64,000 nt of DNA, taken from assembly GCA_963665665.1 (NCBI GenBank), contig OY762428.1:2336001-2400000 (forward strand). The letters are read 5' to 3'. Under the pieces are notes generated by a model. The model was not told the DNA's origin. It did no database searches and saw only the letters and a program-made list of their open reading frames with translations. Source of the DNA: Candidatus Kapaibacterium sp. (GTDB lineage: Bacteria > Bacteroidota > Ignavibacteria > Kapaibacteriales > UBA2268). Shown here one piece after another: positions 8,915 to 64,000 of this stretch. The position numbers and the translations under genes are program-made. Positions within the stretch are counted from its first letter, which is position 1, and each line of letters begins with the position of its first letter.

Positions 8915-9513
8915 ATGCAATCAGATAATAATCACGTGCCCTTCATTAAACATTTTGTTGCATTATCTTTTTTAATAATACTTTTGAATTCCTGCTTTGA
9001 TCCTGACGAGGAACACTTTGTGGAAGTTCAGCGGGTGGATGATCCGGGCCTCTTGAAAATTGATATTGAACCTGCCGATGATCCGGTTATGTATGTTAGT
9101 GGTGAAAAGATAACTTTCAATGTCACACCGATGAAATTAATGCAAAATCTAAAAATCTATGCTTTGGATTAGGGCCGATGGTTGAAGTTAAATCAAAAAT
9201 ATTGCCCGACAATATGGAATTGAAATTTTTTCTTCGATTAGGTTATCTTTTCTCAATTTCTGATATTGATGAATATGTTGAAGTAAATGGCACAAAAGAT
9301 ATTGGCCGTGATGAAACGATTGATTCAAAAAGTATGTTCATTCAGCCAGGCCTTAAGTATCTTTACAAATTCAATAATTTTGATGTTGGATTCAGTTTCA
9401 GTTGGTTTGCTGATTTCGACAAACTCTATGTAGATCATTATTCTTATAGTACCCAATGGGATGGTGTAAGGCTGACATTGCTTTTCGAAACAAGTCTGGG
9501 GCAATTTGATTGA
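8915..9513 (+). pseudogene. Deletion-fused remnant of a lipoprotein plus OM beta-barrel gene pair
   Basis: 5' part has lipobox LLNSC like the 9760 gene; from about 9133 another frame reads EINAKSKNLCFGLGP..TQWDGVRL, matching YIDSKSVNYCIGLGP..TQWDGIRL of the 11639 gene. Confidence 0.75.
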
Positions 9514-9759: not shown

Positions 9760-11622
9760 ATGAAGCATTTATTAAATCTATTATCAACAGTATTAATTGT
9801 TTTTTTATCAGCATCCTGCATGTATAACCCGGTTGAAACCGTGGATGCGATAGTGGAACCAAGGCTCGACATAGGCAATACTGATATCAGGATCCTTCCC
9901 GAGGCAGATACATTGATCCTTCCTGAAAATGGCAATCTTGAAGTAAAATTAGTAGTTCAAACAGAACTTATCGTAAATCATGTTGAACTTATCAAGGATA
10001 CAACAACTATAAGCGTTGTAAATGACGGATCAAGCTATCCCGGTAGTAACAACACAAAAGTGTTCAGATATTATTTTAATAAGAATACGAAATATTTGGC
10101 CGGACTAATTAATTCATTGAAATTCAGAATAGTATTTGAAACCTGTACAGGATCGCTTGCGGACAGGTATCATCAGGAATTTATTACTGTGGAAAGAGAC
10201 TTTATTGTATCGAACATGAGTATAGAGGAAAAACCCTCAATTACCAGATTTGCTGATACAAACGGATCATTAATGATCTTTTGGGAAAAATCCGAAAGCG
10301 AATATTTTAGTTCATACTCTCTGATCAGTAAAAATGAAGAGGTGGCCAGAATATATGACATAGATAAACCGATGGCATACGATACAACATTCTTTGGGCC
10401 GGAAAAAGATTATTATGTAAGAACATATTACTTCGATGGAAAAGTTTCTATCGACGGGAATAAAACTTCATATAAGAAAAACCTGCCATCACCAATTGTT
10501 CAGCTATCTGCCGATACTGCAAGAATTACGGTTTCCTGGGATACCTTCCCCTATTATAACAATCTGAAAGGATACCGGCTTTTAATTATGGATAATAGCA
10601 ACCAGAATGAATTTAAGTTCTATACATCGAATAAAAAAACCACCAGCTTTGTGATTGACAGTTTGTTTATTCTTGAAAACAACAGGTACAATCTGATGTA
10701 CCTGACTAAAGTGGATGTTGAAAACCAATTTGTGAAATATAGCGGTATCAACAACCGGGGGGCTTTCAATACCGGCGAAGAGTCAGGTTTTCAGGGCCTT
10801 TACAAGATGTATCAGGATGAAAATGATAATTGCTACTATTTTGATTCCGGTGAATTTGGCGAATATGACATTCATACTCATTTGAAATTAAATTCAACTT
10901 CTATTCAATTCGACAGAGTATGGCTTTGCGAGAATGGTAAATATTTTACTATTCAATACTGGAATTTTTTATATGTATATAACATGGAATCCGGCGAATG
11001 TGTTGATACATTAAACGTCAGTTCAATAAGCGGGAGCGCGGATACTGATATTGATTTCCTGGATATATCACTGGATAGTTGTTATGTGTTTGAACATAAA
11101 AGGACTTTATATCTTTATAATTTTATTAGTTCTGTTCTGAAAACATACAGCTTGCCATCTGCCATATCGAACCTGAAGATTTCAGAAGACGCGGAATATT
11201 TAAGCTATGTTGTATATTCGAATCCGGGATATACTACCAAATGTTTTAAAATTGCCGAAGATTCTCTTGAGCAAATATCTTCTAAAGAAATCGAGGGCCT
11301 CAGGTTCATAACTACATTCAAGGGAAGTGGCCATCAGTTTGTTGGATATGATCAATATGGAATTTCAATATTTGATCCGGAGTCGGGAACTATTGTTGAA
11401 AAATATAATTTTGCAGTAAATACTTATGAGCAGAATTACTTCAGCTTTGACTGGAAAAACAGAAAGTTGCTGGTTTGCAATGATTCGCGGGGAAAATTAT
11501 ACGACATGGACAGAAAAAAGACGATTTTTACCATTGGAACTACCTGGGGGAAATATTACAATCTAATCGGGAACCAAATCTATAAAAATCAGAAATATAT
11601 TGTTATACCGGATATTGAATAA
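9760..11622 (+). CDS. Hypothetical lipoprotein (FN3-like segments, probable C-terminal beta-propeller)
   Basis: 620-aa ORF, lipobox LSASC, SD AGGAGG. Confidence 0.75.
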   Translation: MKHLLNLLSTVLIVFLSASCMYNPVETVDAIVEPRLDIGNTDIRILPEADTLILPENGNLEVKLVVQTELIVNHVELIKDTTTISVVNDGSSYPGSNNTKVFRYYFNKNTKYLAGLINSLKFRIVFETCTGSLADRYHQEFITVERDFIVSNMSIEEKPSITRFADTNGSLMIFWEKSESEYFSSYSLISKNEEVARIYDIDKPMAYDTTFFGPEKDYYVRTYYFDGKVSIDGNKTSYKKNLPSPIVQLSADTARITVSWDTFPYYNNLKGYRLLIMDNSNQNEFKFYTSNKKTTSFVIDSLFILENNRYNLMYLTKVDVENQFVKYSGINNRGAFNTGEESGFQGLYKMYQDENDNCYYFDSGEFGEYDIHTHLKLNSTSIQFDRVWLCENGKYFTIQYWNFLYVYNMESGECVDTLNVSSISGSADTDIDFLDISLDSCYVFEHKRTLYLYNFISSVLKTYSLPSAISNLKISEDAEYLSYVVYSNPGYTTKCFKIAEDSLEQISSKEIEGLRFITTFKGSGHQFVGYDQYGISIFDPESGTIVEKYNFAVNTYEQNYFSFDWKNRKLLVCNDSRGKLYDMDRKKTIFTIGTTWGKYYNLIGNQIYKNQKYIVIPDIE

Positions 11623-11638: not shown

Positions 11639-12319
11639 ATGAAAAAGTGCTTCGTTCTTATATTTTCAGTTCTATTATTTACTTCATCTTATTCTATGGC
11701 GAATGATCTGTTTTTCAGCTTAAATCCCGGCTGGGGATCTTATCAAATGATCGACCTGAAAAACTATTTTGACGATATAAAAAAGAGCAATGCAATCGGC
11801 CTTGTTACAGATGATTTTCCGGGGTATTTCAATATCGGAGCCGATTTATTATATGAAATGACAGGATCGTTGAATATCGGTGTTGCTTTTATCTTCAACA
11901 GTACCGGCGGCAGATTCCATTATAATGATTATTCCGGTTATATTGATTCCAAATCAGTTAACTACTGCATAGGTTTAGGGCCTGTTTTTGAATTAAAAAC
12001 CAGCATTCTTGACGACAGGATAACCGTAAAATACTACAGCAGGTTCGGGCTGTTGCTTTCAAGTATGGAATTATCCCATTATATGGAAATTAACGAAGAA
12101 GTAATAAAAGATAATAAATCAACCACCGAAGCATCCAGTATGTTTTTAGAACCAGGTTTCAAGGTACTTTGGAATAACGATAATGTTAATTTTGGAATCG
12201 GAATGGGGTATTTCCTTGATTTTGATGAATTTTACGATGGAACTGAATTTCGCACCCAATGGGACGGAATTCGCCTGTATGCTATTCTGGAAACAAATAT
12301 CTCAAAATTGTTGCAATAA
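11639..12319 (+). CDS. Outer-membrane beta-barrel protein
   Basis: Signal peptide, amphipathic aromatic strands, SD AGAGG. Confidence 0.7.
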   Translation: MKKCFVLIFSVLLFTSSYSMANDLFFSLNPGWGSYQMIDLKNYFDDIKKSNAIGLVTDDFPGYFNIGADLLYEMTGSLNIGVAFIFNSTGGRFHYNDYSGYIDSKSVNYCIGLGPVFELKTSILDDRITVKYYSRFGLLLSSMELSHYMEINEEVIKDNKSTTEASSMFLEPGFKVLWNNDNVNFGIGMGYFLDFDEFYDGTEFRTQWDGIRLYAILETNISKLLQ

Positions 12320-18299: not shown

Positions 18300-21200
18300 T
18301 TAGTTCTTGATAAACTGCTTTCTAATATCAAACTTATCATTTAATAATCTAACAAAATAAGTTCCCGGAACGTAATTATCAATCTCTATTCTGAGCATTG
18401 AATCATCCTGCATATTTACAGATTTTGTTTCAATAACATTCCCTTCAAGGTCGTAAACGTACATGTCTGCAGGGCCAATGGCTTTTGGTACATGAATATC
18501 AACATGGCTTGTAGCCGGATTGGGGTATAGTTCAGCTGCAAATTCATCATTTTTAACAGGTACATCAACCATGTCGCCAATTCGGAATGAATAAAATACG
18601 CCAATACCAAAATCAGGATCGAAAACATGTATGTCTTCACCGGCACCGTCAACTATTCTCAGGTAGCCGTTGCCCTGGTCAGGAATAGCCCAGTAGGAAA
18701 GGCCGTAATGTCTTTGGTCAAGTACTCTTAAGGTGTAGCATCCTTCTTCCAGTTCTGCAAAGTTGAAAGTATATAAAGAATTGTTCTGGAAATTATCTCC
18801 GCTTTTAACAACATTTCCTGCATAGTCCAAAATCTCGACAGAGAACTCGCTTCCGCGAAGGTTTGTCAATATCCGGACTTCACAGCTATTAGTATACATA
18901 TCAGTTTGTTTGAAACGGCTGGTGTAAGTGTCATTTTCAGCATATTGATCCTGCTTACCGTTAGGATCGGAAACTGTTGCAGTAAATTTCCTCTGTTCGT
19001 CGCCATGCCAGAATGCTGATGATGTTATCGGTATGTATATTGTATCAAAGCGCATAGGTTCAATATTGCCTGTCCAGTTGAAATCAATGGGGTCGCCGCC
19101 TGAAACACCGATATTGATATTCAAAGATGTTATAGGCTCGCTGCCATTATTTCTTACAATTATTGTAGGCTCGGAGCATATCGGATTTATCCTTGAGTAA
19201 TAATCCCAGCTGTTAGGAGAAATGATGTCATAAAGCTCGGCATCAATTTCGTGTGTCGGAGCAGAATATTGAATAAAGTGCATTGAAGTTACGTAATTAC
19301 CGTTGCCCATATTTTTATTATTAGCCGGCACAGGAGTAATTCCATAATCGAATTTTGTTGTTGGTTTGGTTACTATTCCCGTCAGCTCGAATTCAAAATC
19401 TTTTACTACATCTCCCGGGCACCAGCCTTCGCGTGCTCCGGGCCATGTTCCGCCCTGGGGATAAACCGGGTTCATCGCGCATTCGTAATACTGGAATATC
19501 TTCCATGAAAATTCATCATTATTTACCAGTAAATAATGGTCGTTATCTTTCCATTCGCAGCAATGAGGATATTCACCGTCGTTGCTGTGATGTCCGTGGC
19601 CGGTAAGCCTTGTTTTGATTTTGAAAGTTTCTGCGTCATCCAGAATCGGAACTTCAATTTCCGACAATACATCGTCATTATCCATCTGGCTGTATCTATA
19701 AGATTTCATTGGGCCCCATATCCTGTCTACGCTAAGAACTTTTCTCGGAGGGGTTCCTTTGATAAATTCAAACCTGACATCGAGCAATTCCTGCTGGTTG
19801 CCTGCCGACATATCAACTTCGCCTGTCAGAAGATGAGCATATTCCGTAACGTCGTATCTCCATTCGAACCCGTCGGGCCCAAGGTCAAGCATTTTTCCGT
19901 AAGGAGTGATAAACCTTGCTATTTCATACCTGTCCAGTATTTCAGCAGGTTCGGTATAATATGTAATTACATCATTATAAATTTCTTCTGATTTCTCGGA
20001 ATAGCTGGAATCGATTCTGTTGCCGTCAGGATCGTAGGTGTATCCCCATCCACCCTGTTCCACATTAATCAATTCATCAACAATTGCTCTGTGTCCGTCT
20101 TTTTTGAATTTTACAATACTAAGTTGGGGAAGCTGTTCGGATATTGTTGCTACTGATTCATTTACCCGGGTTTCATATTCGCCTCGGAGCATAACTACAG
20201 CGGGACGGTTCTCGCTGCCAAAAGAATTTTTCATGTAATCCGCAGGATACATCTGTTTAACGGCAGGCATTCCAATTAGCCTTCCGTTTCTTTCCTTGCC
20301 TGATTTATCAATTACATAGCCATTCTCGATATTCTCCATATCATAATAAAGCTGTAGGTTAGAGTAATTCGGGTGTGTTTCGTCAATATCCTTATCCAGC
20401 CATTCAGAAATAGCATCATTGCTAAGAGCATCATTCCAGATTCTTACATCATCAATACATCCGTCGATCATTGAATTATTGCCTATAGTACTCGATATTT
20501 TAACGGGCTCGTTATTCACCGGAGTATAGGAAGGAATCACGTGCTTATATATAAGCCCTATTTCCCGACCGTTAATGAAAAGCTTCAGCTTGTCATTATT
20601 CGATTCTCCTGAACCGTCGAAAACCATGGCAATATGCGTCCATTGGCCAACCTGCAGAACGCCTTCGGCCCTGCCCCACTGATTCAGAGCAGGACGAACT
20701 ATACAATATACTTCCCTTTCCGATCCGCCGCACTGCAGAACCAGCTTGTTGTTCTTTGTAATAATATCAGCCCAGTTTTTCCATTTGTTGATCTTTACCC
20801 AGGTTTCGTAAGTTACTTTCTGAACTCCGTTAATTTCCGGAATATCCGTTGCTTCCACATAATCATAAGTGCCGTCAAATTCAAGGAATGTATCATTCTC
20901 GGCAGAAATTATGCCGCCGGATACTGCGTTGGCTCCCCAAATAACATCTTCGGTATCTTCATCTATCGAGTAGCTGATATCGAAAAGAACACTGAACAGT
21001 CCGTTCCAGTCGAAAGGCTCATTGAAATAAATAGTATGCCAGCCTTCTTCCTGAACAGTAATATCATCATAATGATATGTTACTAACTCAATATTATCTA
21101 TCATATCAGTTGTTTTAGAATTCGTATTCTTCAACCCGATCTTAAGGTTCTTCAGCGTTATCGGCGCACTTTTCAGGTAAAATTTAACACCGTGTATATT

Positions 21201-21740
21201 GCCTTTACTTAAACCGGCATCCTTCAGGTCGTTCTTTTTATAAAGAAACTGCATCCTGACATTTTTATCGGAAATGGCCAGGTCGGCGTTTTCATCACCG
21301 GCCTGATACTCATCCTCGGAAATTACCGATGTAACTTCAGTGTTGAACTTCCTGTATTGAAAATTATTGATAAGTTCAGTGTTCGAGTACCTGATGGTAT
21401 CGGGCGACTGCCTGCCGATTTTATACAGGGGGTGCTCCGTAAGGCTGGAATCCATAACCCCGGTGTGCTTATATACGAAAGTATGCGTCAGGTAGTCCCA
21501 TTCGCCGCAATGATACTGATCCCTGTATGTCAGCGGATCGCATTTCAGCTTGTAATACATATATATCTTACGGTACTCATCAGGGTTGTCCGGGAACTGC
21601 CATGTGCCGCGCCTCGTAGTAATCGAATCATAACTTAGCGTTTGTACCACAATTTTCTCCAGGGCAAAAGTATCCATTGCAACAAGAAGCATAAATGCTG
21701 TTAGTGCAGTAAGTTTCATGTTGTTCAGCAATTGTTTCAT
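18300..21740 (-). CDS. Peptide-N-glycosidase F-related protein with LamG insert, T9SS cargo
   Basis: CGEWDY, EIARFITPYG, TGHG..CCEW, GTWPGAREGWCPG; LamG WTHIAMVFDG..GCIDDVRIWN; CTD LYPNPA. Confidence 0.85.
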   Translation of the reverse strand: MKQLLNNMKLTALTAFMLLVAMDTFALEKIVVQTLSYDSITTRRGTWQFPDNPDEYRKIYMYYKLKCDPLTYRDQYHCGEWDYLTHTFVYKHTGVMDSSLTEHPLYKIGRQSPDTIRYSNTELINNFQYRKFNTEVTSVISEDEYQAGDENADLAISDKNVRMQFLYKKNDLKDAGLSKGNIHGVKFYLKSAPITLKNLKIGLKNTNSKTTDMIDNIELVTYHYDDITVQEEGWHTIYFNEPFDWNGLFSVLFDISYSIDEDTEDVIWGANAVSGGIISAENDTFLEFDGTYDYVEATDIPEINGVQKVTYETWVKINKWKNWADIITKNNKLVLQCGGSEREVYCIVRPALNQWGRAEGVLQVGQWTHIAMVFDGSGESNNDKLKLFINGREIGLIYKHVIPSYTPVNNEPVKISSTIGNNSMIDGCIDDVRIWNDALSNDAISEWLDKDIDETHPNYSNLQLYYDMENIENGYVIDKSGKERNGRLIGMPAVKQMYPADYMKNSFGSENRPAVVMLRGEYETRVNESVATISEQLPQLSIVKFKKDGHRAIVDELINVEQGGWGYTYDPDGNRIDSSYSEKSEEIYNDVITYYTEPAEILDRYEIARFITPYGKMLDLGPDGFEWRYDVTEYAHLLTGEVDMSAGNQQELLDVRFEFIKGTPPRKVLSVDRIWGPMKSYRYSQMDNDDVLSEIEVPILDDAETFKIKTRLTGHGHHSNDGEYPHCCEWKDNDHYLLVNNDEFSWKIFQYYECAMNPVYPQGGTWPGAREGWCPGDVVKDFEFELTGIVTKPTTKFDYGITPVPANNKNMGNGNYVTSMHFIQYSAPTHEIDAELYDIISPNSWDYYSRINPICSEPTIIVRNNGSEPITSLNINIGVSGGDPIDFNWTGNIEPMRFDTIYIPITSSAFWHGDEQRKFTATVSDPNGKQDQYAENDTYTSRFKQTDMYTNSCEVRILTNLRGSEFSVEILDYAGNVVKSGDNFQNNSLYTFNFAELEEGCYTLRVLDQRHYGLSYWAIPDQGNGYLRIVDGAGEDIHVFDPDFGIGVFYSFRIGDMVDVPVKNDEFAAELYPNPATSHVDIHVPKAIGPADMYVYDLEGNVIETKSVNMQDDSMLRIEIDNYVPGTYFVRLLNDKFDIRKQFIKN

Positions 21741-21901
21741 TTTCTCTCTCTTTTGTTAGCTAAAACTTCATTCTTTCAATCAGGCAAATATAATAACGAT
21801 TAAGTTACCATGCAGAATAAAGTTCTGTATTTTTTGATTAAAAATAATAAAAGAAAGAGGAAAACGACAATATCTCCAAAAAGTAATATAATGGAGCATG
21901 A

Positions 21902-22009
21902 ATGGGAAAAGATTGTCCTTTTTGTAAAAGCGGAAAATGCACCAAAGAATGCAAAACCGATAAAAATAAAAAGAAGAAGAAAAAACATAAAAAAAAGAAG
22001 AAAACCTGA
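21902..22009 (+). CDS. 35-aa Cys4 / poly-Lys microprotein (not in the ORF track)
   Basis: MGKDCPFCKSGKCTKECKTDKNKKKKKKHKKKKKT; GGAG 5 nt before the ATG. Confidence 0.55.
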   Translation: MGKDCPFCKSGKCTKECKTDKNKKKKKKHKKKKKT

Positions 22010-22212
22010 CATTCTGTTGCTGTATAAACAGGACTACGGATTACAATTTACCTAAACTATACTCCGGTTCATGCTTTCCCCGCCCCCTTATACCCGGTAT
22101 TTTCCCGGAAATATCGAAATTCCCTTATCCAAAATCAAAACCATGCTCCGGCATATCCTATCAGCGCATCCGAATATCGAACCTCCCGGCCAGAATAACA
22201 AACTTGCGGACT

Positions 22213-22750
22213 GGAAAAGCAATAAAATGATTCAAACCATGTTTTTTCCGCTGCAGCTCTTGTTTTTTGCCATCTGAAATATTGAATATCAGCGCTTAAA
22301 TTACTTTGGCTGGTTCGCTAAAGCCTAAAGTATTTTCAAAAATCAGATATAGATAGATCAAATAATAATATTTATAAAACAGATTATACAATATTTAATC
22401 TAAATTAATATATTATAAGTAAATATAATAATATATCCGATTCATATTATGCTTGATATAGTTTATCTAACAAAACTTTTAATATAAATTATAGAATATT
22501 ATTATCATTCAAACAAATACATTATTTATAATATAATATTTATTAAGTATCTAATAAATTACCTGATAAATCTTATGATTTATCATATATATCTATTTTG
22601 TTAGATGCATTGATTATATCCTAATTTATACTATTAATTTCATTGATCGGGTTTCTGAATTTATAATTCATATTAATAATTTTATAATATATCTGAATAA
22701 AATCATTCGGATAATTAATTATTTTATAAGATTTATTATTAATATCATTA
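22213..22750. repeat. AT-rich non-coding element, copy A (homologous to 63369-63906)
   Basis: Colinear at a constant offset of 41,156 bp; manual alignment gives about two-thirds identity with no gaps needed. Confidence 0.85.
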
Positions 22751-22897
22751 GATATAAATATTATATCTTAATTTGTTCTGCAAATATTCTAATCAGGATT
22801 ATATATAAACTAATTCATACTATATATTTTATTATTTCCTTTCAGAGAAGCAGATAAATTTATCGCTTTAGATTATTTCAGGACGACAGAAAGGCAT

Positions 22898-22933
22898 TTT
22901 TACTCCGGGCTTTACGGTAAAAGCCGGAGTAAA
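22898..22933. other. Imperfect hairpin just left of the IS
   Basis: TTTACTCCGG..CCGGAGTAAA. Confidence 0.5.
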
Positions 22934-22971
22934 CGGTTGCTTTTAAATGGCTCACACACAAAACTTGGGGA

Positions 22972-23904
22972 CTAAGCAAAAAGTTTCATTAATCTGAATA
23001 AGAAGAAATCGTTATCGACAACCCCTCTTTGGTTAGCCCTGAATAGCTTGATTTTTGAGTTGAATGACTCAGCATTAGCATTGGTACTACGCCTGACAAA
23101 GAAGTTAAGGATATTATTAAAATGATTTCTGATAGTATTGGAAACTGTATTAAACTCCTTAATAGCCAGCTCTTTTGTTTTGTCAATCCAATCGGCAATT
23201 TTCTTTGCAGCAGTGGCTTTATCATAGGATTCATATATACTTCTAAACTCTAGCACATGATAGTAAGCATTTTTTATATCAGGATATAAGTCAAACATCA
23301 ATGATGCCCTCAATTTTTGGCTTTCAGTCCATTCATTAGGTTTCCTTGCAACGATATAGCGGCATCGTGCAAGCAATTGTTTGTGAGTATCTCCATTTAT
23401 TAATTTCTCAGCTTTGAATCTTTTTCCCTTCTTCCTGCAAGCGTCAATTGCCTTGTTCTCGGTATCCAGTTCATCCCATCGATGTTTAATTCTAACGTGC
23501 TGCAAAGCTTCCAGAGCAAGCCTTACAACGTGAAAACGGTCAATAACATGGAATGCTGACGGGAAGGCCCTGCGGGCTGCCGATGACATATTATTTGCCA
23601 TATCCATCGTTATTTCCCGCACCTGATTCCTTAGTACAAGTGGTATCTTTTCAAGTACTTTAACGATTTTATCCGACGATGTTCCTTTAATTATTGCTAT
23701 TATTGTTCCTTTCCTGCCACGGCCTGCCTTGTTGGTTATAAAAGTATATAACTCTCCTTTGACCAGGGACAATTCATCAATACTGACATATGGTCCAATA
23801 TTATCAGGGAAAATCAAATAATCGGAAGCATGCTGTTTTTGATCCCAATCGGTATAATTACTGCTGTGTTCCTTATAATGGCGACGCAGTGTATTTGGTA
23901 TCAC
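22972..23904 (-). CDS. ISL3/ISAon1 transposase, catalytic DDE part
   Basis: SIDE, ITMDM, IDRFHV, TNANAESFNSKIK; the frame stays open upstream to about 23960. Confidence 0.93.
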   Translation of the reverse strand: MIPNTLRRHYKEHSSNYTDWDQKQHASDYLIFPDNIGPYVSIDELSLVKGELYTFITNKAGRGRKGTIIAIIKGTSSDKIVKVLEKIPLVLRNQVREITMDMANNMSSAARRAFPSAFHVIDRFHVVRLALEALQHVRIKHRWDELDTENKAIDACRKKGKRFKAEKLINGDTHKQLLARCRYIVARKPNEWTESQKLRASLMFDLYPDIKNAYYHVLEFRSIYESYDKATAAKKIADWIDKTKELAIKEFNTVSNTIRNHFNNILNFFVRRSTNANAESFNSKIKLFRANQRGVVDNDFFLFRLMKLFA

Positions 23905-23926
23905 CCTGTAATAATTTGCTATTGTT

Positions 23927-24310
23927 TTAATCGTATCTTCCCGGGTCTCTACCTGTAGATTTTAAAAAATCCGACAACTCCTGTGTAAGTTTTACGCCCT
24001 TGGCTATGAAAGAATAATCGTTGCTAACAACCTTATTCTTATTAGTTTTATTACGCCAGCGACGACGCTTGATATACAGATATACCGCCTTGCCACGCAT
24101 TGGAAAATCCTGTATCCTCTTTGGCGGCAGGAAGCCTTTAGACTCGTATTCCACGGCTTTTGATCCTGCGGGAAGGATGTTCTTTTCTTCGATGTATATT
24201 CCTATAGCCACACTCTGATCCTGGGGATCCTCTATCTCTTTTACTTCGGTTATTGTAAAAAATTTTAACAGGCCTTCTGGGAGTATATATTTTGCCAGTT
24301 CTTCTGTCAT
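23927..24310 (-). CDS. ISAon1-type transposase N-terminal ORF
   Basis: SKGF..IQDFPMRGKAVYLYIKRRRW..GVKLTQELSDFLK. Confidence 0.88.
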   Translation of the reverse strand: MTEELAKYILPEGLLKFFTITEVKEIEDPQDQSVAIGIYIEEKNILPAGSKAVEYESKGFLPPKRIQDFPMRGKAVYLYIKRRRWRNKTNKNKVVSNDYSFIAKGVKLTQELSDFLKSTGRDPGRYD

Positions 24311-24686
24311 TATGCTGTCACTTTCATTATTTACTGATCTTCTCTTATTCTTAATTTTATTACATCCTTTAAAGCTTCTTTCTAGGCTTAAAAGGGGATG
24401 CTTGAATCTTGCAATTTAGCACTTTATCCCCAAGTTTTGTTACTGGGCCTTTTAAATGAAGATGGCACGGAGAATGCAAAAGAATATCCGGAGGCATGGG
24501 ATAGTAATTATTCAGCTTTACGGGATAAATAATATATTGGCAGGGTTTGGTATATATGAATTAATGAAGCTATTTAAGCCTGCCCCGGGCTTTCGCCCGG
24601 AACAGCTGTTTAATCAAAATTATTAGTTTGTTTCTGCCCCGAATAAAAATAATAGTATGTCAGATATTTTCAACAATACTAAGAAG

Positions 24687-47482: not shown

Positions 47483-50400
47483 CTACCATTTAATTATCCT
47501 GTTGAAGGATTGTCCTTTGCCGGTTCTCAGAATAAGGATATAATTTCCGGAACTAACCGCTGCGCCATTAGGATATGTGCCATTCCAGACAAATTCATGT
47601 CTTCCTTCGGTCAGCCATTTATCAGCTATATGACTAACCAGATTACCCTTAATATCATATATTTCCATTTCCACTTTTATATCTTCGGGAACCGCAAGCT
47701 GAATCCTGACTGCTTCGTCCTTCTCGCTGGGATTCCTGACAATTGTAATTTCCGGCAGTATCTGCTCTTTATCAATAACTCCGACTTCGGCAAATTCCAT
47801 TTCGCTGTTGTATTTTTGCCCGATAATACCGACAATATAGCACAATGTATCACTCGAAGACCATTCCGCGAGAATGGGCTGGCCGGAATCGCCATGAACC
47901 CAACTTAGGAAATGTTCTTCAATTCCGCCTGCGGCGTTTTCTTTTGTATCGCTTACAATCCAAACCGAATTAACTCCGGCCGCGTTACTTATTCCTGATA
48001 CAGAAACAAACTGCCCGGCAAGAGCCTCGCCATTCGGGCTTATCCACTGAACTGCCAGCTCAACGCCCATGTTGCTATCCAGTGCGCTCTTCAGATAATC
48101 CCATGTCGGGTAGCCGCCGGCATTTCCGTCAACCTTCAGGCCATAATGCAGGTAGCGTCCATCCGGCGAGAAGATAGTATCGGGAGCAATTCCCGGAGTC
48201 TGATACTGAACCTCAAGCTTAATTTTGATACTATCAATATATTGCAGCTTGGCAGCAACAAGTTCTGACAGGCTTACCCCGCTATTCTCCGCCCTTCCGC
48301 TGAACCGGCTTGTCAGTTCAAGTGTCCTGCGCGGTTCTGTATCAAAGTTAAATTCTGTATGGGCTTCGTCGATAAACCTTACGGACGCCCCGACAGATGC
48401 AGGGCCTCCGGCGCCTTCGTCACCCGAGTATATTGCAGTATATTGAGGATCATCATCGGCACTGTTCAGGTCTGGCTGATACATCTGTATATCACGATAT
48501 ATAAAGTCGTAAGTATCAGGTTCCGAGAACTGTACAGCTATTGGGTTGGATACTTCTGCAAGCGCGGTTTCATCTAATCCGTCGGATATATAATAATCTG
48601 TTTCGCTAATAGGTATCGTTTCCCAGTCAACGCCGGTAATTTGCGATGTCCAGGGACTTTCAGTAACGAAGGTTGATATTTCAATTTCCTCGAGAGCCTG
48701 TATTTTTTCAATTTCCTTTTCCATCATTTCATAGTCGAACCAGTACAGGCATTCTTCATTATCAAAGTCCGGCATGATCAGTGCATTCTTCAATATCCAG
48801 AATTCGCTTGTGCCGTCGGGCTTCCTGGCAACAACATTTCCATACAGCGGGCTGCCACTTTCATTCGAAGAAGCTTCGAAAAGCACCGAACCCTTTCTGA
48901 CAGAAGCCAGTGTCATGGGTTTATCTACTTTATTTAAACTGACTTTTTTTATCTTCAGTTCTTTGGGTTTCGGCTTTTTATAGCTTTCGGAAACAATACT
49001 TTCAATTCTTCTGTTGCTGCTTCCCCAGCGTTTAAGAATAGGAATACCGGTGCTTGTTGTATCCCAATCAATAAATTCCTCGCCGGTTGTATCCCGTTCG
49101 GAATAAGCATAGCCGTAACCGGAAGAATCCTGCCGCAAATCGTCCTTTATCCACAGAGACCTTACTCCGCCAATGTCAATCATTCCGGTAACAGTTACCC
49201 AGTGGCCGCCTTTTCTTACCCCGGCAGTATCGTATTTGCCGTATTCCAGTTCAACGTCTTCGCCGTCTTTCATCTCCTGTTTCAGGAATTCCCATGTAGG
49301 CCAGGTGCTGTCGCCTGTATTTCTGTTGGAAGCTTTCAGTACATTGCCGCTGCTGTCGGTTACCTGAGGAATTTCTGATTTCTTCATCTTTTTAGTCTGG
49401 AACTTCACTTCAATGGGCAGATTGTATTTCTGGATAAATTTCAGCTTTCCTTTAATAAATTTACTTGTATAAACGCCTCTTTCATTTGCCCTGTCCATCA
49501 TTTCACTCAGCTCTGTAAGTTTTTTACGGTGAGTGATCTTAGAATCTATCTCGTCGTGAACTTTTTCAAGCCATTGCATACTGTTTGCAGCCGATGCAGG
49601 CCCACAGGCATTTTTGTCTCCGGCATAGCCTTCCGTATTAGCTGAATTATGAGAAGCAGAGTCAAGGTCGATATTTGGTACTTTACATCCACGGTAAAGG
49701 AAATCTTTCAAAGCAAGATCAACGTAATCAAGATCTGAAAGAGGTATCATTTTCACGGTATCTTTCTGTCCGTCCTGCAGGCTGCCTTCCTCGAAATTAA
49801 TTTTGAAAATATCTACGTGAGCTGTTTTCCAGATATCCTGTATTACAGGCTCGGTCCAATTTTCGTCGCCAACACTCATCTGGTATTCAATTTCTTCCAG
49901 CCTGTCTCCGGCTGCCAGCCCGAGTTTGCTAAGGTCAAATCCGTAAGAAACACGCCTGTAGTTATCAAAAGGAGGTGCCGGCATATTCCTGATTAGCCAG
50001 ACAGGTTCTTCATCTTCGTTTAGCCTTGCCACCACATTCACAAAGCCCATATCTTCGCTCGGATTGAATACCACTGAGAAATTGCCCGTATTCGTCAATC
50101 CGGCTCCGGGAAGCATACTATAATACTGCCCGAAGTCCTCCGTGCCTCTCTGCACCCTGTATTGTACAGTAGGATCGTAACTTTCTGATATAACAGAATG
50201 AACATACCTTACGCCACGGCCGTATCTCCTAATGTAAGGCCTGCCCCGGCTGTCGGTGCTCCATTCAAGAATTTCCTCTCCGCTTTCGTCAATATGCCTT
50301 CTCCTTGCCCTGCCAAGGCCCTCGCGTCTTTGTTTTGCATCGTCCTTAATCCATAATCTCTGCACTCCGCCCGTTGTGGCAACACCTGAAACAGTAACGG

Positions 50401-53400
50401 CATGCCCCCTGATTTTGCCATCGCTGCCACGCCATGCAAGCATCATTTCCACGTCCTCTCCGTGCTGCATCTCGCCAACAAGCCAGTCCCAGTCAGGGAA
50501 TTGCGAATCTTCATCGCGCTCGTTCCTGGCGCTGTGAGCGAAACCTCCGCCGTTTGTTGTATCGGGAGAGTTAATAACAGAATCAGGTGGAATTTCGAAG
50601 CTTTGGAATTTAACTTTTATCGGCAGCCTGTGTTTATCAATATAAGCCAGCTTGCCTTGTACGAAATTAACAATTGAAGATACTCCCTTGTTGGGCTCTC
50701 TTTTCATTAGTTTACTTAGTTCATATAACTTGCCGCGCAGCGAATCATCAATCGAAAATTCGTCATGGACTTCGTCTAACCAGTGCAGGCTGTTTGCTGC
50801 TGCTGCCGGAGCGCATGCATTTCTGTCGCCGGCATAGCCTTCCACATCATCGTCGCCGTATTCGCGGTCGTTAAGGTCGATATTATAAACATCACAGCCG
50901 CGATAAACAGTATCCCTTAGCGGATCGTCAGCGTCAAACACCAGTTCGGGAACATCCTCTGGCTCGGCGTTGAAATCGTCATTAAGGTTGATACCGCCGG
51001 GAATATCGAAATCAACGTCACCAACATCAACTTCTATCCATTTGTCAATTTGCTCAGGCTCCTCCCATGGATTAATAGTTATAGATGTTCCAATATGCAT
51101 TGACTCTACATCATCGCCTGCTGTAACCCCCAGCCTTGCAAGATCGACACCATAAGCCATTGAGTGCCTTCTCGGGAAGGGCATTATTGGCAGGTTGGGA
51201 ATCAGCCATACTGGTTCGTCAGATTCTTCAATTTTGGCAAACACCTGCAGGTATTTAAGCTCTTCCGACGGATTGAAAATTGCGCTGAAATAAGCTCCGG
51301 TCGTCAGATTTCCATCGTCGGGATCCAGCATATTCGTCTGGTTCATTTCTATACTTTCTTCATCCACAGAAAATTGAACGGTGGAATCATAACTTTCGGA
51401 AACAACATCCTCGACAACCCGAACATAAGTTTGCCCGGATGAATCAGCCCAGGGTTTGCCAAGTATTACCATTTGTCCGCGGCTGGTATTATAAGTATTC
51501 CATGCCATTTCCTCTTCTCGGGTATCGGTGTTTATGCTGTCATTAGCCCGTGACTGGTTGCGGTCGTGTTTGAATTTGATTTTATTTACTCCCCCGTCGT
51601 CGCCTGCGCCTGTAACGGCTACTTTATGGCCGCCGGTTCTTTCCAGGTCGAATCGGAATCCGTTTATTCCCCCGGCAGGTATGGTAAACTTATATGTACC
51701 AAAAGCAAGTTCGACGTCTTCATCGTCTTCCAGCTCTCCTTTTATCCAGTCCCATTCGGGATAAGCCCCGGCAGTATCGTTATGGCATTTAGCTTTCATA
51801 TTGAACGTACTGGATGGCGCTGTTATCTCAGTCGTATCGGTATAAAATATACCCTGGAACTTAACTTTTATCGGCAGCCGGTACTTTTCAATAAACTGCA
51901 TTTTCCCTTCAATGAAGTTTACCGGCAAAGTACCACTACTATCAGCCCTGCCCATCATACCACTGAGTTCGCGTAGTTTTTCCCTGGCCTCGTCCATTTC
52001 GTCCGTAAATTCGATCCCGTCATGATTTGCCTGGAGCCACTGCATACTGTTTGCAGCGGCGGCCGGGGCGCAGGCATTTTCATCCCCGGCGTAACCGTTC
52101 GTGTCCGGGCCGTTACGGGAATAATCAAGGTCGATATTTGTAAAAGTGCAGCCATGATTGATATCAACGGTTCTCGTGTATGAGCTGTCATATTCAGGAT
52201 TAAGTATTTCATCCCAGAGATCACGTATTTTCCTCGTTGTTGTATATGTACCGCTTGCATTTGTTAAAGTACCGCTGTTTATACTTCCGGTAATAAGATC
52301 TTCTGTTCCAAGTGGCCATGTAAACCACATATCATCAACCGGCATTGGTGTTACAAGGATATCATCAGTTACTGATATTTGAACTTCAATTTCTTCAAGA
52401 TCCCATGGCGCTGAAACATTAAGCGGCTCCAGGCTGAAATCAAAAGATTTGTAAACAGGAAAATCATAAGGATAGATTTTCATATTATCAACGATGAGCG
52501 AAACTGTTGTGCTGCCGGGTGCCCTGGCAAGTATGTTCACGAATTTTTCTTCATCAGTGGGAATTGCCACAGCGCTGAAGTTGGCATAAGTTGTTGTTAA
52601 TTCCTCCTCATTTTCATGTATCCTGACTTTATTGAATTTCATTGTTTTCTTGTTCATACTGAACTGAACATTGGAATTATAGCTTTCAGAGATCATGTCA
52701 GTTACAACACAAGCCCTGTTGCCTTTGGACCATTCATCAAGCAGAGGCAATTCACTGTCGCCAATAGTTCTCCATGTCAATCCATTTTGCTCTGTTCCCC
52801 CCTCGCCGTTCTGAACATCATCATCTTTTATCCATATCCGATTTACTCCGCTGATTTGCGAAACTCCGGTAACAGTAGCTACATGGGAGCCTTTATAAAC
52901 CCACCGGGTGCCGTCCCATTCATAATAATCCATTACCATTTCAACATCTTCCCCGTCTTTCATTTCATTGTAGAGCCATGACCAGCTAAGTGGATTCAAA
53001 TCCGTATCTGTTCTGCTTTGATTATCTGCGCTGTGGCCGTATTTATCATTCGGTGAATCAATATCGTTTGTCCTGCCGGTATATAGACTCTGGAATTTTA
53101 CACTAATCGGCAGTTTATGTTTATCAATAAAAGCCAGCTTTCCTTTTATAAAATCTTCTACAGAAACGCCGCTGTTGGGCTCGCGTCCCATCAAACCGCT
53201 TAATTCAACAAGTTTCCCCCTCAGATCCTTATCCGTAGCTATTTCCTCATGAACTTTTTCCAGCCAGTGCATGCTGTTTGCAGCGGCGGCGGGAGCACAG
53301 GCATTTTTATCGCCCGCGTAGCCTTCAGCTGAACCCGGAGGGTTGGCAGCCGAATCGAGGTCAATATTAGGTATGTTGCATCCACGGTAAATAATATAAT

Positions 53401-54324: not shown

Positions 54325-54837
54325 ATGAAAATTATAAAGAATATGAACAGGTTTGTTTTATTATTATTGATTCTTATTCCGATTCAGCTTCAGATAATAT
54401 TTCCGGATACATATTTCAAATATCAGCTGATTGAGTATTTATCAATTTCTTTTTCCACATTGTTTATTCCACTGTGGTATTTAACAGCTTTTAAATACTT
54501 TCATAAAAGCATATCAGAAAAGAAATTAGAAAAAAATAAAATCACATCTAAAGCAAATCGCTTATTTGTGATAAATACAATTTTCATATATATTTACTTC
54601 AATTTTTTAACTGCCGGGCCTTCTGTTTTTAATATTCAATTAAATGATTTCGTTGGATTTCTTATTCCATTTCAATTATACCTCGCTATTGCCAATATTC
54701 ATGCTAACTATCATATTTCAAAAATCATTTCCCTTTACGATCATAAGAACAGGTTTATATATTTTTTCCTGTTAATGATACCGCCAATTGGCATATTTTT
54801 TATTCAACCGAAGTTAAATGAAATCAAAGAAGCCTGA
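54325..54837 (+). CDS. Hypothetical membrane protein
   Basis: 170-aa hydrophobic ORF, SD GGGAG, ends PIGIFFIQPKLN. Confidence 0.65.
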   Translation: MKIIKNMNRFVLLLLILIPIQLQIIFPDTYFKYQLIEYLSISFSTLFIPLWYLTAFKYFHKSISEKKLEKNKITSKANRLFVINTIFIYIYFNFLTAGPSVFNIQLNDFVGFLIPFQLYLAIANIHANYHISKIISLYDHKNRFIYFFLLMIPPIGIFFIQPKLNEIKEA

Positions 54838-62864: not shown

Positions 62865-62883
62865 GCTAATTACATTTCTGATC

Positions 62884-63153
62884 TTATGCTGCCCCGATAC
62901 CAGAATAGCAGGATGGGCCCTCCGGGCCTGGAGCGGGATTTCCCACATTTCCCCCGGCAAGGCAATCAGGATAGTAAGGATTACTGTCTCCTGATCCATG
63001 AAAACAATTCGGATCATCTGCATCCCACACACCTGAAGTTCCGATTATACAACTTACTGCACCTGCTATACCGCCGGATGCTGCTGAACCATTTCCACAT
63101 AATAAACTGTTATCTGTGCTAATCATGATTGTTTTTAATTTTTGATACTTCAT
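62884..63153 (-). CDS. Putative RiPP precursor with five CxxG motifs (ScmA-like)
   Basis: Leader MKYQKLKT then a Gly/Ser/Ala/Pro-rich core with CGNG, CIIG, CFHG, CLAG, CYSG. Confidence 0.65.
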   Translation of the reverse strand: MKYQKLKTIMISTDNSLLCGNGSAASGGIAGAVSCIIGTSGVWDADDPNCFHGSGDSNPYYPDCLAGGNVGNPAPGPEGPSCYSGIGAA

Positions 63154-63368
63154 ACTGTTTATTTCTGAATTAATAAAGAAGTGAAACACATCACAATTTC
63201 CTTATAAATATAAGGAATAATTAAATAGTTGATAAGTTTGGCAATAATTACTCCGTTTATTTTAATATTGAATTTTCTGGTTCAAAACAACATATTTCAG
63301 ATCACTTCCAACAGACACAAATTGAAGCTTTTCCGAAAGCAGATGGCTTTTCAATAAATTTCCGGCCC

Positions 63369-63906
63369 GGAAAAGCAATATCATGCTGTGTATCATGTTT
63401 CCTCCGCTGCTGCACTGGCTTATTGCTCTCCGTTAAATAGAATAACAGCGCTGAAATTACTTTGGCGTATCCGATAGGAACGAAAATTAGTCAAAAACAA
63501 TGGTATATATTAATCAAAAAATAATATTAATAATACAAATTATAATATTTTATTTCTATCCTTATATATTTTAGATATTTATAATAAAATATATAATTTA
63601 TTCAACCATTGATATAGTATAACTAACAAAACTTTTTACATATATTATAAAATAATTAATGTATATAATTATTTTAATATTATATCAAATAATATTATTG
63701 AAATATCCTATTAAATAAATGATTTATATAATAATTTATATAGTATATCTTTTTTATTAGGCGGATTAAATATTTCATAATTTATATCATTAATATTATT
63801 AGCCAGGCATTGAATTTAATAATTCATGTAATTTATTTTATAAAATGATAAGAATAAATAATTTGATGGATCAATAATAGTTTAAATCATAATATTAATA
63901 TGCTTA
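63369..63906. repeat. AT-rich non-coding element, copy B (homologous to 22213-22750)
   Basis: Shared anchors GGAAAAGCAATA, CAGCGCTnAAATTACTTTGGC and TTGATATAGTnTAnCTAACAAAACTTTT at a constant offset. Confidence 0.85.
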
Positions 63907-64000
63907 TCCGGTCCAATATTTTTATAAAATATCTTGATTATTTAATAATAATAACTTAAAAATTTATAGGGTATTATAATGTTTTAATCAGATTAATCGG

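What the first reader, a model, noticed from the sequence alone, without database searches (positions are those of the whole stretch)
22213..22750. ~540-bp AT-rich non-coding element repeated 41,156 bp away with no net indels
Seen: 22213-22750 and 63369-63906 align at one constant offset, about two-thirds identical by my manual count. They share a GC-richer ~100-bp head (GGAAAAGCAATA..CCGCTGC..CAGCGCTnAAATTACTTTGGC) and an extremely AT-rich body with conserved islands, e.g. TTGATATAGTnTAnCTAACAAAACTTTT and an inverted partner (TTTTGTTAGAT in A, TTTTATTAG in B) about 130 bp downstream. Weaker similarity extends left to about 22040/63190. Neither AT-rich body has an ORF of 60 aa or more, mismatches in the head show no codon periodicity, and the flanking genes are unrelated. 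Inference: one-third divergence with preserved length in low-complexity DNA implies selection on exact spacing, such as a phased nucleoprotein platform (chromosome-organising, origin-like or recombination site, or a long regulatory module) or an unknown RNA. I recognise no named family. Best candidate for an undescribed system here.
Basis: partly seen in the sequence, partly recalled or inferred. Interest (0 to 1): 0.85.

Follow-up and report, generated by a model that had tools for sequence, protein, structure and literature searches.

The report
Phase-locked AT-only 21-bp repeat element, two copies
Two old copies of a non-coding DNA module, a short conserved head followed by about 25 strictly phased 21-base AT-only units, have kept their exact length despite heavy sequence change, which points to a DNA-level protein-binding scaffold of a kind not yet described.

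Summary
22213-22750 and 63369-63906 are 66.9% identical without gaps, against 34.7% (sd 2.0) for shuffles. Homology starts sharply at about 22197/63353 and ends near 22750/63906.

The AT-rich body is an array of about 25 units of exactly 21 bp. It is phase-locked over about 500 bp in both copies. The copies match unit for unit: 0.65 identity between orthologous units, 0.43 between other units.

The element is not coding. It shows no RNA structure signal and no Rfam hit. It has no match in plasmids, phages or 1.23 Mb from related Kapaibacteria/Ignavibacteria genomes.

The unit profile is two-fold symmetric, including the placement of the rare G and C. Single units are not self-complementary. 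This favours double-stranded DNA read by a symmetric protein every two helical turns, over hairpins.

Best reading, at confidence 0.4: a cis-acting phased nucleoprotein platform. Its function is not shown. Only two copies could be seen, because the source genome and the metagenome collections were out of reach.

The parts
22197..22312 (.). Copy A, head: GC-richer (0.35) non-coding segment, 74% identical to the B head. Homology to B begins sharply at its left edge.
   Evidence: nhmmer places the match at 22197-22799. Mismatches 8/11/10 by codon position and stops in 5 of 6 frames. No significant RNA fold on either strand.
22313..22860 (.). Copy A, array: about 26 units of 21 bp, GC about 0.15. 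Homologous to B unit for unit up to 22750. The periodicity continues to about 22850 without detectable homology.
   Evidence: Autocorrelation peaks at 21, 42, 63, 84, 105 and 126. Sharp peaks at lags 21 and 42 only among lags 1-45. Column information 3.97 bits per unit against 1.90 (sd 0.34) in shuffles. Constant phase of the 4.2-bp harmonic from 22342 to 22678. Unit orthology.
63353..63468 (.). Copy B, head (GC 0.43).
63469..64000 (.). Copy B, array: at least 25 units of 21 bp, with the lowest GC in the window (0.11-0.14 in 300-bp windows). It runs into the end of the window, so its right end is unseen.

Best explanation
Each copy is a cis-acting DNA element that works as double-stranded DNA.

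Structure: a conserved head of about 115 bp is followed by about 25 contiguous 21-bp units. 21 bp is two turns of B-DNA, so equivalent positions of all units lie on one face of the helix. Each unit is a weak site of about 4-5 bits. It has two-fold symmetry: a strictly A/T half, and a half in which G and C are tolerated only at mirror-image columns.

Proposed mechanism: a two-fold symmetric (dimeric) DNA-binding protein, or a filament-forming nucleoid-type protein, occupies the units cooperatively. This builds a long phased nucleoprotein structure, which the head nucleates or bounds. Selection on this structure keeps the unit length, the unit number and the register fixed while most individual bases drift.

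Shown: periodicity, phase lock, unit-for-unit orthology, absence of net indels, symmetry of the unit profile, absence of coding and of RNA-structure signals.

Inferred: that a protein binds, that binding is cooperative, and what the complex does. My preferred guess for the role is silencing or insulation of the neighbouring leftward genes, or local chromosome organisation.
For: 1. Constraint on length. Identity is 66.9% with no gap over 554 bp. Identity expected from the periodic column profile alone is 0.437 against 0.65 observed. From this I calculate about 0.5-1 substitution per site. At the usual bacterial ratio of roughly one indel per 10-20 substitutions (established knowledge, not computed here), tens of indels would be expected.
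2. Periodicity. Autocorrelation peaks at multiples of 21 in both copies. Lags 20 and 22 lie below the mean. Information per column is 0.19-0.23 bits at period 21 against 0.07-0.11 at periods 19, 20, 22 and 23. In the sliding scan of the window, 25 of the 27 printed windows with z > 2 lie at the two elements; 16 of them lie in A's region from 21951, whose first five or so start in A's separate left-flank periodicity. The two others are at 51951 and 61751.
3. Phase lock. The phase of the 4.2-bp (21/5) harmonic stays within 46-74 degrees in A and 43-96 degrees in B from 22342 to 22678, and agrees between copies.
4. No homogenisation. Units within an array are only 0.41-0.43 identical, while orthologous units between copies are 0.65 identical. 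The orthologue is the best of 20 candidate units for 11 of 20 units.
5. Symmetry read on duplex DNA.
- The unit profile correlates with its reverse complement at r = 0.70 (A) and 0.77 (B) at one shift. 0 and 1 of 1000 column permutations reach this.
- Independently, the G-per-column profile mirrors the C-per-column profile best at the same axis out of 21 possible axes in both copies, r = 0.64 and 0.68. Only 21 of 65 G/C positions of A are identical in B.
- Single units are not self-complementary. They show 3.83 and 3.74 complementary pairs of 10, against 4.24 and 4.45 expected from the columns alone; 1878 and 1991 of 2000 permutations are at least as high as observed. This speaks against hairpins and for independent reading of half-sites.
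6. Alternatives weakened.
- Every frame has 13-33 stops.
- There is no Rfam match at gathering or at E <= 1, except one chance-level snoRNA hit outside the element.
- Fold energies are no better than shuffles.
- Power at 10.5 bp is at noise level, so this is not classical A-tract curvature.
Against: - No protein, transcript or phenotype is linked to the element.
- Only two copies were seen. They are homologous, so features shared by both are not fully independent evidence.
- The profile symmetry on the A/T signal may follow trivially from the dominance of one harmonic (4.2 bp). Only the G/C mirror test is independent of that, and it rests on 58-65 G/C bases per copy.
- With that harmonic removed, the same axis ranks first in B but second in A.
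- No candidate binding-protein gene lies beside either copy.
- No relative of the element was found in 80 loci (1.23 Mb) of related genomes. Conservation beyond this genome is therefore unshown, although the nearest of those genomes is distant (MurA at most 77% identical).
- Short compensating indels cannot be excluded.
- Within A, two local duplications at multiples of 21 bp (spacing 42 and 147) show that the array is not completely frozen.
Confidence: 0.4

Rival explanations
1. Old copies of a non-autonomous mobile element that carries an internal minisatellite, built like the BrickBuilt MITE of Porphyromonas gingivalis (leader, tandem 23-nt repeats, tail). It would have at most a side effect on neighbouring transcription.
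For: - The architecture is similar: a non-repetitive head followed by a spacer-free tandem array of about 20-nt units.
- It is strictly intergenic, in a bacterium of the same superphylum, next to type IX secretion cargo genes.
- BrickBuilt is described this way in PMC4596501 (abstract and sections 5 and 7 read): leader up to 285 nt, 1 to 22.8 repeats, always intergenic, several neighbours with PorSS C-terminal domains.
- The left edge of homology is sharp.
Against: - No inverted repeat links the left end of A to its right end among the 14 pairs listed, and no target duplication was seen.
- The two copies are 67% identical with the same unit count and register over the shared 554 bp. BrickBuilt copies vary from 1 to 22.8 repeats, with 0-11% mismatches and 0-6% indels within an element.
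- Units here are almost fully diverged from each other (0.41-0.43), unlike a young minisatellite.
- There is no match to plasmids or phages.
Confidence: 0.2
2. A relic or domesticated iteron-type replication origin or partition centromere from an integrated plasmid or similar element.
For: - Phased repeats about two helical turns apart beside AT-rich DNA are typical of iteron origins. In Vibrio cholerae oriCII an array of six 12-mers needs exact spacing and phasing (PMC4551981, passages read).
- Plasmid centromeres such as parH are arrays of degenerate short boxes with AT-rich spacers, coated cooperatively by dimers (PMC3130281, abstract and passages read).
Against: - None of the 40 ORFs scanned against Pfam carries a Rep, ParA, ParM or ParB domain, nor does any of the 14 scanned against NCBIfam.
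- The flanks are housekeeping genes: murA, an M23 peptidase, truA.
- DnaA-box-like sites are not clustered at either copy. One one-mismatch site lies at 22125-22133 and none in B.
- About 25 units is several times the number in known origins or centromeres.
- Two diverged copies sit 41 kb apart on one chromosome.
- There is no plasmid match.
Confidence: 0.1
3. A long AT-rich non-coding RNA, or the leader of a transcript, whose length is constrained at the RNA level.
For: - Length conservation is also typical of structured RNAs.
- In the head, a stem (GGAAAAGCA, 18 nt, then a T-rich partner) is kept in both copies while its loop varies. B's two changes keep pairing only on the minus strand, through G-U.
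- A terminator-like hairpin lies at 63373-63359 on the minus strand at the left edge of B. A hairpin lies at 22899-22933 to the right of A's array.
Against: - The consensus fold of the two copies is -17.9 (+) and -24.1 (-) kcal/mol for 664 columns.
- Head folds: z = +1.53, +0.15, -0.07, -0.62. Body folds: z = -0.86 and -0.68.
- Within-unit complementarity is below expectation.
- There is no strand asymmetry in composition: AT skew is -0.004 and -0.003.
- No Rfam family matches.
- No exact match to the promoter box TAnnTTTG lies inside either element. That box is about three times enriched in the intergenic DNA of this window.
Confidence: 0.1
4. Functionless, decaying duplicates of an old AT-rich minisatellite. 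The shared register would be inherited rather than selected.
For: - The array could have arisen by slippage of a 21-bp unit that is itself built from about five 4-bp sub-repeats. The strongest harmonic is 4.2 bp.
- No function or partner is shown.
- There is no conservation in the related loci that could be searched.
Against: - Units within an array have decayed almost to background (0.41-0.43 against about 0.37), yet the register is intact over about 25 units in both copies.
- There is no net indel between copies at about 0.5-1 substitution per site.
- G and C are confined to mirror-image columns in both copies, although most G/C positions differ between them.
- A<->T changes dominate the differences (81 of 178). 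Rapid transition-type hypermutation therefore cannot explain divergence without indels.
Confidence: 0.12

Closest known systems
BrickBuilt, a MITE with an internal 23-nt minisatellite in Porphyromonas gingivalis (PMC4596501; abstract and sections 5 and 7 read)
   Same: It has a non-repetitive leader next to a spacer-free tandem array of about 20-nt units. It is always intergenic, occurs in the Bacteroidota/Chlorobi superphylum, often sits beside type IX secretion cargo genes, and is restricted to one lineage.
   Different: - BrickBuilt has IS5-like terminal inverted repeats, 19 copies, repeat numbers from 1 to 22.8, and young repeats (0-11% mismatch).
- Here no terminal repeats were found in A.
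- The units are nearly fully diverged.
- The two copies keep identical unit number and register at 67% identity.
- The array is almost pure A/T.
Iteron arrays of replication origins, for example the six 12-mers of Vibrio cholerae oriCII-min (PMC4551981; passages read)
   Same: Repeated protein sites are held at fixed spacing and helical phase next to AT-rich DNA. In that system, insertions that alter spacing abolish function, which would explain intolerance of indels.
   Different: - Origins have about 4-9 well-defined sites, a DnaA box and an initiator gene nearby.
- Here there are about 25 weak sites (4-5 bits each).
- There is no DnaA-box cluster and no initiator gene.
- Two copies sit 41 kb apart among housekeeping genes.
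Plasmid partition centromeres coated by ribbon-helix-helix dimers, for example parH/OF of TP228 (PMC3130281; abstract and passages read)
   Same: It is an array of many degenerate short boxes separated by AT-rich spacers, coated cooperatively by dimers. It has no intrinsic bend, and its boxes occur in direct or inverted orientation.
   Different: - parH is about 100 bp with 12 (to 20) boxes at 8-bp spacing.
- It lies upstream of its par operon, and the paper reports it as elastic to rearrangement.
- Here the array is about 550 bp with a 21-bp unit and rigidly kept length.
- No par genes are nearby.
AT-rich nucleation regions of nucleoid-associated silencers (H-NS, Lsr2, MvaT, Rok type). Recalled general knowledge; no paper read for this.
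   Same: These are long, very AT-rich non-coding DNA bound cooperatively through weak, shape-based recognition.
   Different: To my knowledge such regions show no strict sequence periodicity or length conservation. No such protein is known to me in this lineage, and none was identified here.

Membership tests
MITE with internal minisatellite (BrickBuilt type) | Leader, tandem array and tail architecture | tested here: inconclusive
   A head and an array are present in both copies. A tail cannot be defined: homology ends inside the array at 22750/63906 and B is cut by the end of the window.
MITE with internal minisatellite (BrickBuilt type) | Terminal inverted repeats at both ends | tested here: not met
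   None of the 14 inverted pairs found in 22050-22945 joins the left edge (22197-22230) to the right end. B's right end is unseen.
MITE with internal minisatellite (BrickBuilt type) | Many copies with variable repeat number and young repeats | tested here: not met
   There are two copies in the 64 kb with equal unit count over the shared part. Units are 0.41-0.43 identical to each other. The genome-wide copy number is not testable here.
Iteron-type replication origin | Repeated sites at fixed helical phase | tested here: met
   A 21-bp period with constant phase over about 480 bp.
Iteron-type replication origin | Initiator (rep) gene and DnaA box beside the array | tested here: not met
   No Rep domain in the 40 ORFs scanned against Pfam or the 14 scanned against NCBIfam. 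Of the 34 sites within one mismatch of the DnaA-box consensus, one lies near A (22125-22133) and none in B.
Plasmid partition centromere (ParR, ParG or omega type) | Repeat array directly upstream of a partition operon | tested here: not met
   No ParA, ParM, ParB or ribbon-helix-helix domain among the 40 ORFs. No similarity to 72,556 plasmid records.
Any Rfam RNA family | Covariance-model match | tested here: not met
   0 matches at gathering score in the whole window. At E <= 1 there is one chance-level hit (E = 0.3, 19.4 bits against a 45-bit threshold) at 21891-21951, outside the element, and none in 62850-64000.
CRISPR leader | AT-rich leader directly followed by a repeat-spacer array | tested here: inconclusive
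   No repeat-spacer array follows A, and none is anywhere in the window. What follows B lies beyond position 64000.
Intrinsically curved DNA (phased A-tracts) | AA/TT periodicity near 10.5 bp | tested here: not met
   Total power at 10.5 bp is 0.45 and 0.44 in the bodies, against 3.7 and 6.6 at 4.2 bp (the mean maximum over seven periods in shuffles is 1.3). AA and TT power at 10.5 bp is 0.03-0.23.

The most novel reading that the evidence does not exclude
This could be a so far undescribed class of chromosomal cis-element. A long A/T-only array is phase-locked at 21 bp (two helical turns, with a 4.2-bp inner rhythm) and bounded by a conserved head. It would act as a positioning or nucleation sequence for a helical, chromatin-like protein coat in Kapabacteria-type bacteria. 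That would make it a bacterial counterpart of a positioning sequence, with the geometry of the complex encoded in the DNA and kept by selection while the bases drift.
Probability: 0.2. Interest if true: 0.85.

Novelty: new variant of a known kind. Interest (0 to 1): 0.6.

Why it matters
If the reading is right, the element is a natural example of non-coding bacterial DNA in which selection preserves geometry rather than sequence. The preserved features are unit length, unit number and helical phase over half a kilobase.

Such an array would be a ready-made bait for finding an unknown DNA-coating or DNA-organising protein in a poorly known, uncultured lineage. It would also extend the known repertoire of phased repeat arrays (iterons, centromeres) to chromosomal sites of much greater length.

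If instead it proves to be an old minisatellite-bearing mobile element, it is a minor addition to a known class.

Tried and rejected
CODING
- All six frames have 13-33 stops in both bodies.
- Head translations are no more conserved than the DNA, and mismatches fall 8/11/10 by codon position.
- The only 'protein' similarities between ORFs around A and around B are translations of the homologous DNA itself.

RECODED STOP CODONS: no frame is free of any one stop type in both copies.

TRANSITION-TYPE HYPERMUTATION as a way to diverge without indels: A<->T transversions make up 81 of 178 differences.

REPLICATION ORIGIN: no DnaA-box cluster.

PROMOTERS
- The head as a Bacteroidota-type promoter: the conserved TACTTTGG is one base short of the TAnnTTTG box seen upstream of many genes here.
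- Sigma-70-like sites are not enriched: 9 found against 9.1 expected, and 7 against 9.9.
- The type IX secretion gene left of A has its own TATATTTG box at 21785-21792.

EXTENSION OF THE ARRAY TO THE LEFT
- A's left flank (22090-22200) has its own 21/63/84-bp periodicity.
- It does not fit the unit profile of the array in register. Register 0 scores 0.2 and the best register (16) scores 6.2, sd 8.7. B has no such periodicity.

MORE COPIES
- Motif scan of genome contigs with the head motif: 0 hits.
- nhmmer with the A/B profile and with the head profile on the window: only the two copies.
- The same two profiles on 80 related loci: best E = 0.21 and 0.9.

PERIODICITY SCAN OF THE 80 LOCI
- 29 of 24,171 windows had z > 2.5, in 10 places.
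- Five of those ten places were looked at: L006 6151, L033, L013, L029 and L050, plus two sub-threshold or borderline ones (L010, L006 10551). None of them resembled the AT-only array.
- L006 6151 is an unrelated young tandem repeat. The others read like ordinary gene or intergenic sequence; I took them for coding, heptad-type periodicity by eye and did not translate them.
- L045, L073 and L075 (GC 0.47 or more) were not read. TRF lists a 21-bp repeat in L073.

LITERATURE
- Searches found no description of such an element. Only listings were seen, apart from the three papers named above.
- A claim of 'not in print' rests on these five searches only.

ORPHAN ORF: the 101-aa ORF left of B matched only itself (1 hit among the 3 candidates scored), so it gives no functional lead.

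Full report
**1. The observation**

At the constant offset of 41,156 bp, 22213-22750 and 63369-63906 are 66.9% identical over 538 bp. 2000 dinucleotide-preserving shuffles give 34.7% (sd 2.0, maximum 41.8%), so z = 16. The head alone gives 74% (z = 10.7) and the AT-rich body alone 65.3% (z = 12.8).

As a control on real sequence, the A body was slid over all 564 window positions with GC below 0.25. The true partner scored 0.653 and the next best 0.514.

MAFFT opens no gap in 22197-22750. With lenient gap penalties a global aligner adds short excursions that always return to offset 0. 'No net indels' therefore holds, but small compensating pairs cannot be excluded.

Homology begins sharply at about 22197/63353. 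The 'weaker similarity to the left' is not there: 28.0% against 26.5% in shuffles, z = 0.46, and 156 of 300 shuffles reach the local alignment score. To the right, homology at this offset is lost after 22750/63906 (39.4%, z = 0.9).

The 9-bp 'inverted partner' exists, but it is one of 14 (A) and 21 (B) inverted pairs of 12 nt or more in these AT-rich stretches. B's change in it is not compensated.

**2.

The secondary peaks of the sliding comparison fell at multiples of 21 bp. Both bodies are arrays of 21-bp units.
- Autocorrelation peaks at 21, 42, 63, 84, 105 and 126 in both copies.
- Among lags 1-45 only 21 and 42 stand out (0.47-0.49 against a mean of about 0.37). Lags 20 and 22 lie below the mean.
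- Stacked in 21-mers, the columns carry 3.97 (A) and 4.81 (B) bits per unit, against 1.9-2.0 (sd 0.34) in shuffles. Periods 19, 20, 22 and 23 give a third to a half as much per column.
- In a sliding scan of the whole window, 25 of the 27 printed windows with z > 2 lie at the two elements. 16 of these are in A's region from 21951, and the first five or so of them start in A's separate left-flank periodicity (section 6). The two others are at 51951 and 61751.
- The strongest harmonic is 4.2 bp (21/5). It is carried mainly by ApT steps and its best-fit period is 4.19-4.195.
- The phase of that harmonic stays within 46-74 degrees (A) and 43-96 degrees (B) from 22342 to 22678, and agrees between copies. 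The register has therefore been kept over about 480 bp in each copy.
- There is no signal at 10.5 bp, so this is not classical A-tract curvature.

**3. The two copies correspond unit for unit**

Orthologous units are 0.65 identical and non-orthologous units 0.43 (sd 0.14). For 11 of 20 units the orthologue is the best of 20 candidates (ranks 1,1,1,3,1,1,2,1,4,9,1,6,1,1,1,2,1,3,1,4). Units within one array are only 0.41-0.43 alike.

The arrays are therefore old and have not been homogenised. The identity expected from the shared column profile alone is 0.437. From the excess over this I estimate roughly 0.5-1 substitution per site since the copies split (my calculation). With the usual bacterial ratio of about one indel per 10-20 substitutions (general knowledge, not computed here), tens of indels would be expected in 440 bp of slippage-prone DNA. 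None persists as a net shift.

Differences are dominated by A<->T changes (81 of 178). This rules out rapid transition-type hypermutation as a shortcut to divergence without indels.

**4. Not coding, no sign of a structured RNA**

Every frame of both bodies has 13-33 stops. Head mismatches fall 8/11/10 by codon position, and five of the six head frames have stops in at least one copy.

Rfam gives nothing at gathering score. At E <= 1 it gives only one chance-level hit, outside the element. There is no tRNA or tmRNA.

The consensus fold of the two copies is -17.9 kcal/mol on the plus strand and -24.1 on the minus strand for 664 columns. The head folds no better than shuffles on either strand (z = +1.53, +0.15, -0.07, -0.62), and neither do the bodies (z = -0.86, -0.68).

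One small head stem is kept in both copies with a variable loop. In B it pairs better on the minus strand. That is a weak lead only.

**5. Symmetry of the unit**

The unit profile correlates with its own reverse complement at one shift, r = 0.70 in A and 0.77 in B. 0 and 1 of 1000 column permutations reach this.

On reflection this can follow from the dominance of a single harmonic, so I looked for an independent signal. The rare G and C are confined to particular columns. The G-per-column profile mirrors the C-per-column profile best at exactly the same axis out of 21 possible axes in both copies (r = 0.64 and 0.68). Only 21 of A's 65 G/C positions are identical in B.

With the 4.2-bp harmonic removed, the A/T preference is antisymmetric about that axis as well: rank 1 in B (r = 0.81) and rank 2 in A (r = 0.51).

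Each unit thus has a strictly A/T half and a half in which G/C is tolerated at mirror-image positions.

Individual units are not self-complementary. They show 3.83 and 3.74 complementary pairs of 10, against 4.24 and 4.45 expected from the columns alone; 1878 and 1991 of 2000 permutations are at least as high as observed. Symmetry of the average without pairing inside single units is what independent reading of two half-sites on duplex DNA would give. It is not what hairpins in RNA or single-stranded DNA would give.

**6. Surroundings**

The window is chromosomal DNA of a member of the Kapabacteria/Ignavibacteria branch. The window's MurA finds 80 loci, all MAGs, and most of those whose record title names a lineage carry that name. 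The best identity is 77%.

Ten of the 40 larger ORFs carry the type IX secretion sorting domain.

Left of A lie small doubtful ORFs and then the start of a 1146-aa secretion cargo gene (18300-21740, minus strand). That gene has its own TAnnTTTG box at 21785-21792. Right of A's array, after 80 bp that hold a hairpin (22899-22933), sits an ISAon1/ISL3-family insertion sequence (22949-24449). It is flanked by the 8-bp duplication TTTTAAAT.

B lies after murA and an M23 peptidase gene. It is 163 bp from the start of an orphan 101-aa ORF on the minus strand, whose only match among the 3 candidates scored was itself. B runs into the end of the window.

The flanks of A and B share nothing else. No replication, partition or obvious DNA-binding gene is adjacent.

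**7. Search for relatives**

- The head motif gave no hit in genome contigs.
- The element has no blastn match in 72,556 plasmid or 50,697 phage records.
- nhmmer with the A/B profile and with the head profile found nothing in the 80 related loci (1.23 Mb). The best E-values were 0.21 and 0.9.
- No AT-only 21-bp array occurs in those loci.
Copy number, and conservation beyond these two copies, stay unchecked.

**8. Interpretation**

Three kinds of function impose strict length conservation on half a kilobase.
- Coding is excluded.
- RNA structure is unsupported.
- Helical-phase-dependent protein-DNA assemblies fit the two-turn period, the phase lock, the weak (4-5 bit) symmetric units and the lack of hairpin covariation.

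I therefore favour, at confidence 0.4, a cis-acting platform on which a symmetric DNA-binding protein or nucleoid-type filament assembles cooperatively. The conserved head would be the nucleation or boundary site. What the complex does is inference only; candidates are silencing or insulation of neighbouring genes, or local chromosome organisation.

Rivals:
- An old mobile element that carries a minisatellite, like BrickBuilt of Porphyromonas gingivalis (0.2). The architecture is similar, but terminal repeats were not found, and BrickBuilt copies vary freely in repeat number (PMC4596501).
- A relic iteron origin or centromere (0.1). Phasing matters there too (PMC4551981, PMC3130281), but no rep or par genes and no DnaA-box cluster are present.
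- A long non-coding RNA (0.1).
- Functionless decay (0.12). This is hard to square with the kept register.

**9. Novelty and verdict**

No named family fits, and a defining feature fails for each candidate family tested (see the membership table). As a phased repeat array it belongs to a known general kind, but it is unlike known members in five respects:
- its length, about 25 units;
- its nearly pure A/T make-up;
- the weakness of its units;
- its chromosomal setting;
- the rigid conservation of geometry across two strongly diverged copies.

I rate it a new variant of a known kind, with a 0.2 chance that it represents something categorically new. Interest is 0.6. The signal is real and striking, but it rests on two copies in one uncultured lineage, without any functional evidence.

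Noticed in passing
window 22949-24449 (duplications at 22941-22948 and 24450-24457): An ISAon1/ISL3-family insertion sequence. It has imperfect terminal inverted repeats, two ORFs on the minus strand (127 aa N-terminal-region protein at 23927-24310; 310 aa DDE_Tnp_ISL3 at 22972-23904) and an 8-bp target duplication, TTTTAAAT. It is inserted 80 bp to the right of A's array.
   Followed up: partly
window 22090-22200: A's left flank (GC about 0.41, not homologous to B) has its own periodicity at 21, 63 and 84 bp. An example is the pair AATATCGAAATTCCC / AATATCGAACCTCCC, 63 bp apart. It does not fit the array's unit profile in register.
   Followed up: partly
window 21902-22009 (+): A tiny 35-aa ORF with four cysteines (CxxC, 4 residues, CxxxC) and a poly-lysine tail lies about 190 bp left of A's head. 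The same stretch holds an A-rich 21-bp tandem repeat (21962-22004). There is no family match, and the ORF may be spurious.
   Followed up: partly
window 62884-63189 (-): A 101-aa Gly/Cys-rich ORF, 163 bp from B's head. In the homologue search, 3 candidates were scored and its only match was itself, seen on a single contig of 5,458,198 bp. It has no Pfam or NCBIfam hit.
   Followed up: yes
L006 6360-6595: A related Kapaibacterium MAG carries a young tandem repeat of 11.2 copies of an unrelated 21-bp unit (89% matches). The unit contains a 6+6 palindrome. The repeat sits in what looks by eye like a divergent intergenic region; no ORF call was made on L006. It is the only other non-coding 21-bp array seen in the 80 loci.
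   Followed up: partly
whole window: Sites within one mismatch of the DnaA-box consensus are more frequent than expected: 34 against 20.5 (sd 4.9), a count that none of 100 shuffles reaches. They are scattered, mostly inside genes, and are not clustered.
   Followed up: no
whole window: Ten of the 40 larger ORFs carry the type IX secretion C-terminal sorting domain. A 2156-aa protein (47483-53953, minus strand) has only a FlgD_ig match at its C-terminus. Several ORFs have no family at all: 9178-9513, 9760-11622, 11639-12319 and 54325-54837.
   Followed up: no
window 22672-22749 and 22664-22835: Within A's distal array there are two local duplications at multiples of the unit. One is 36 nt at 81% identity with spacing 42; the other is 25 nt at 80% with spacing 147. 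The tool lists no counterpart in B. They suggest in-register conversion or duplication inside the array.
   Followed up: no
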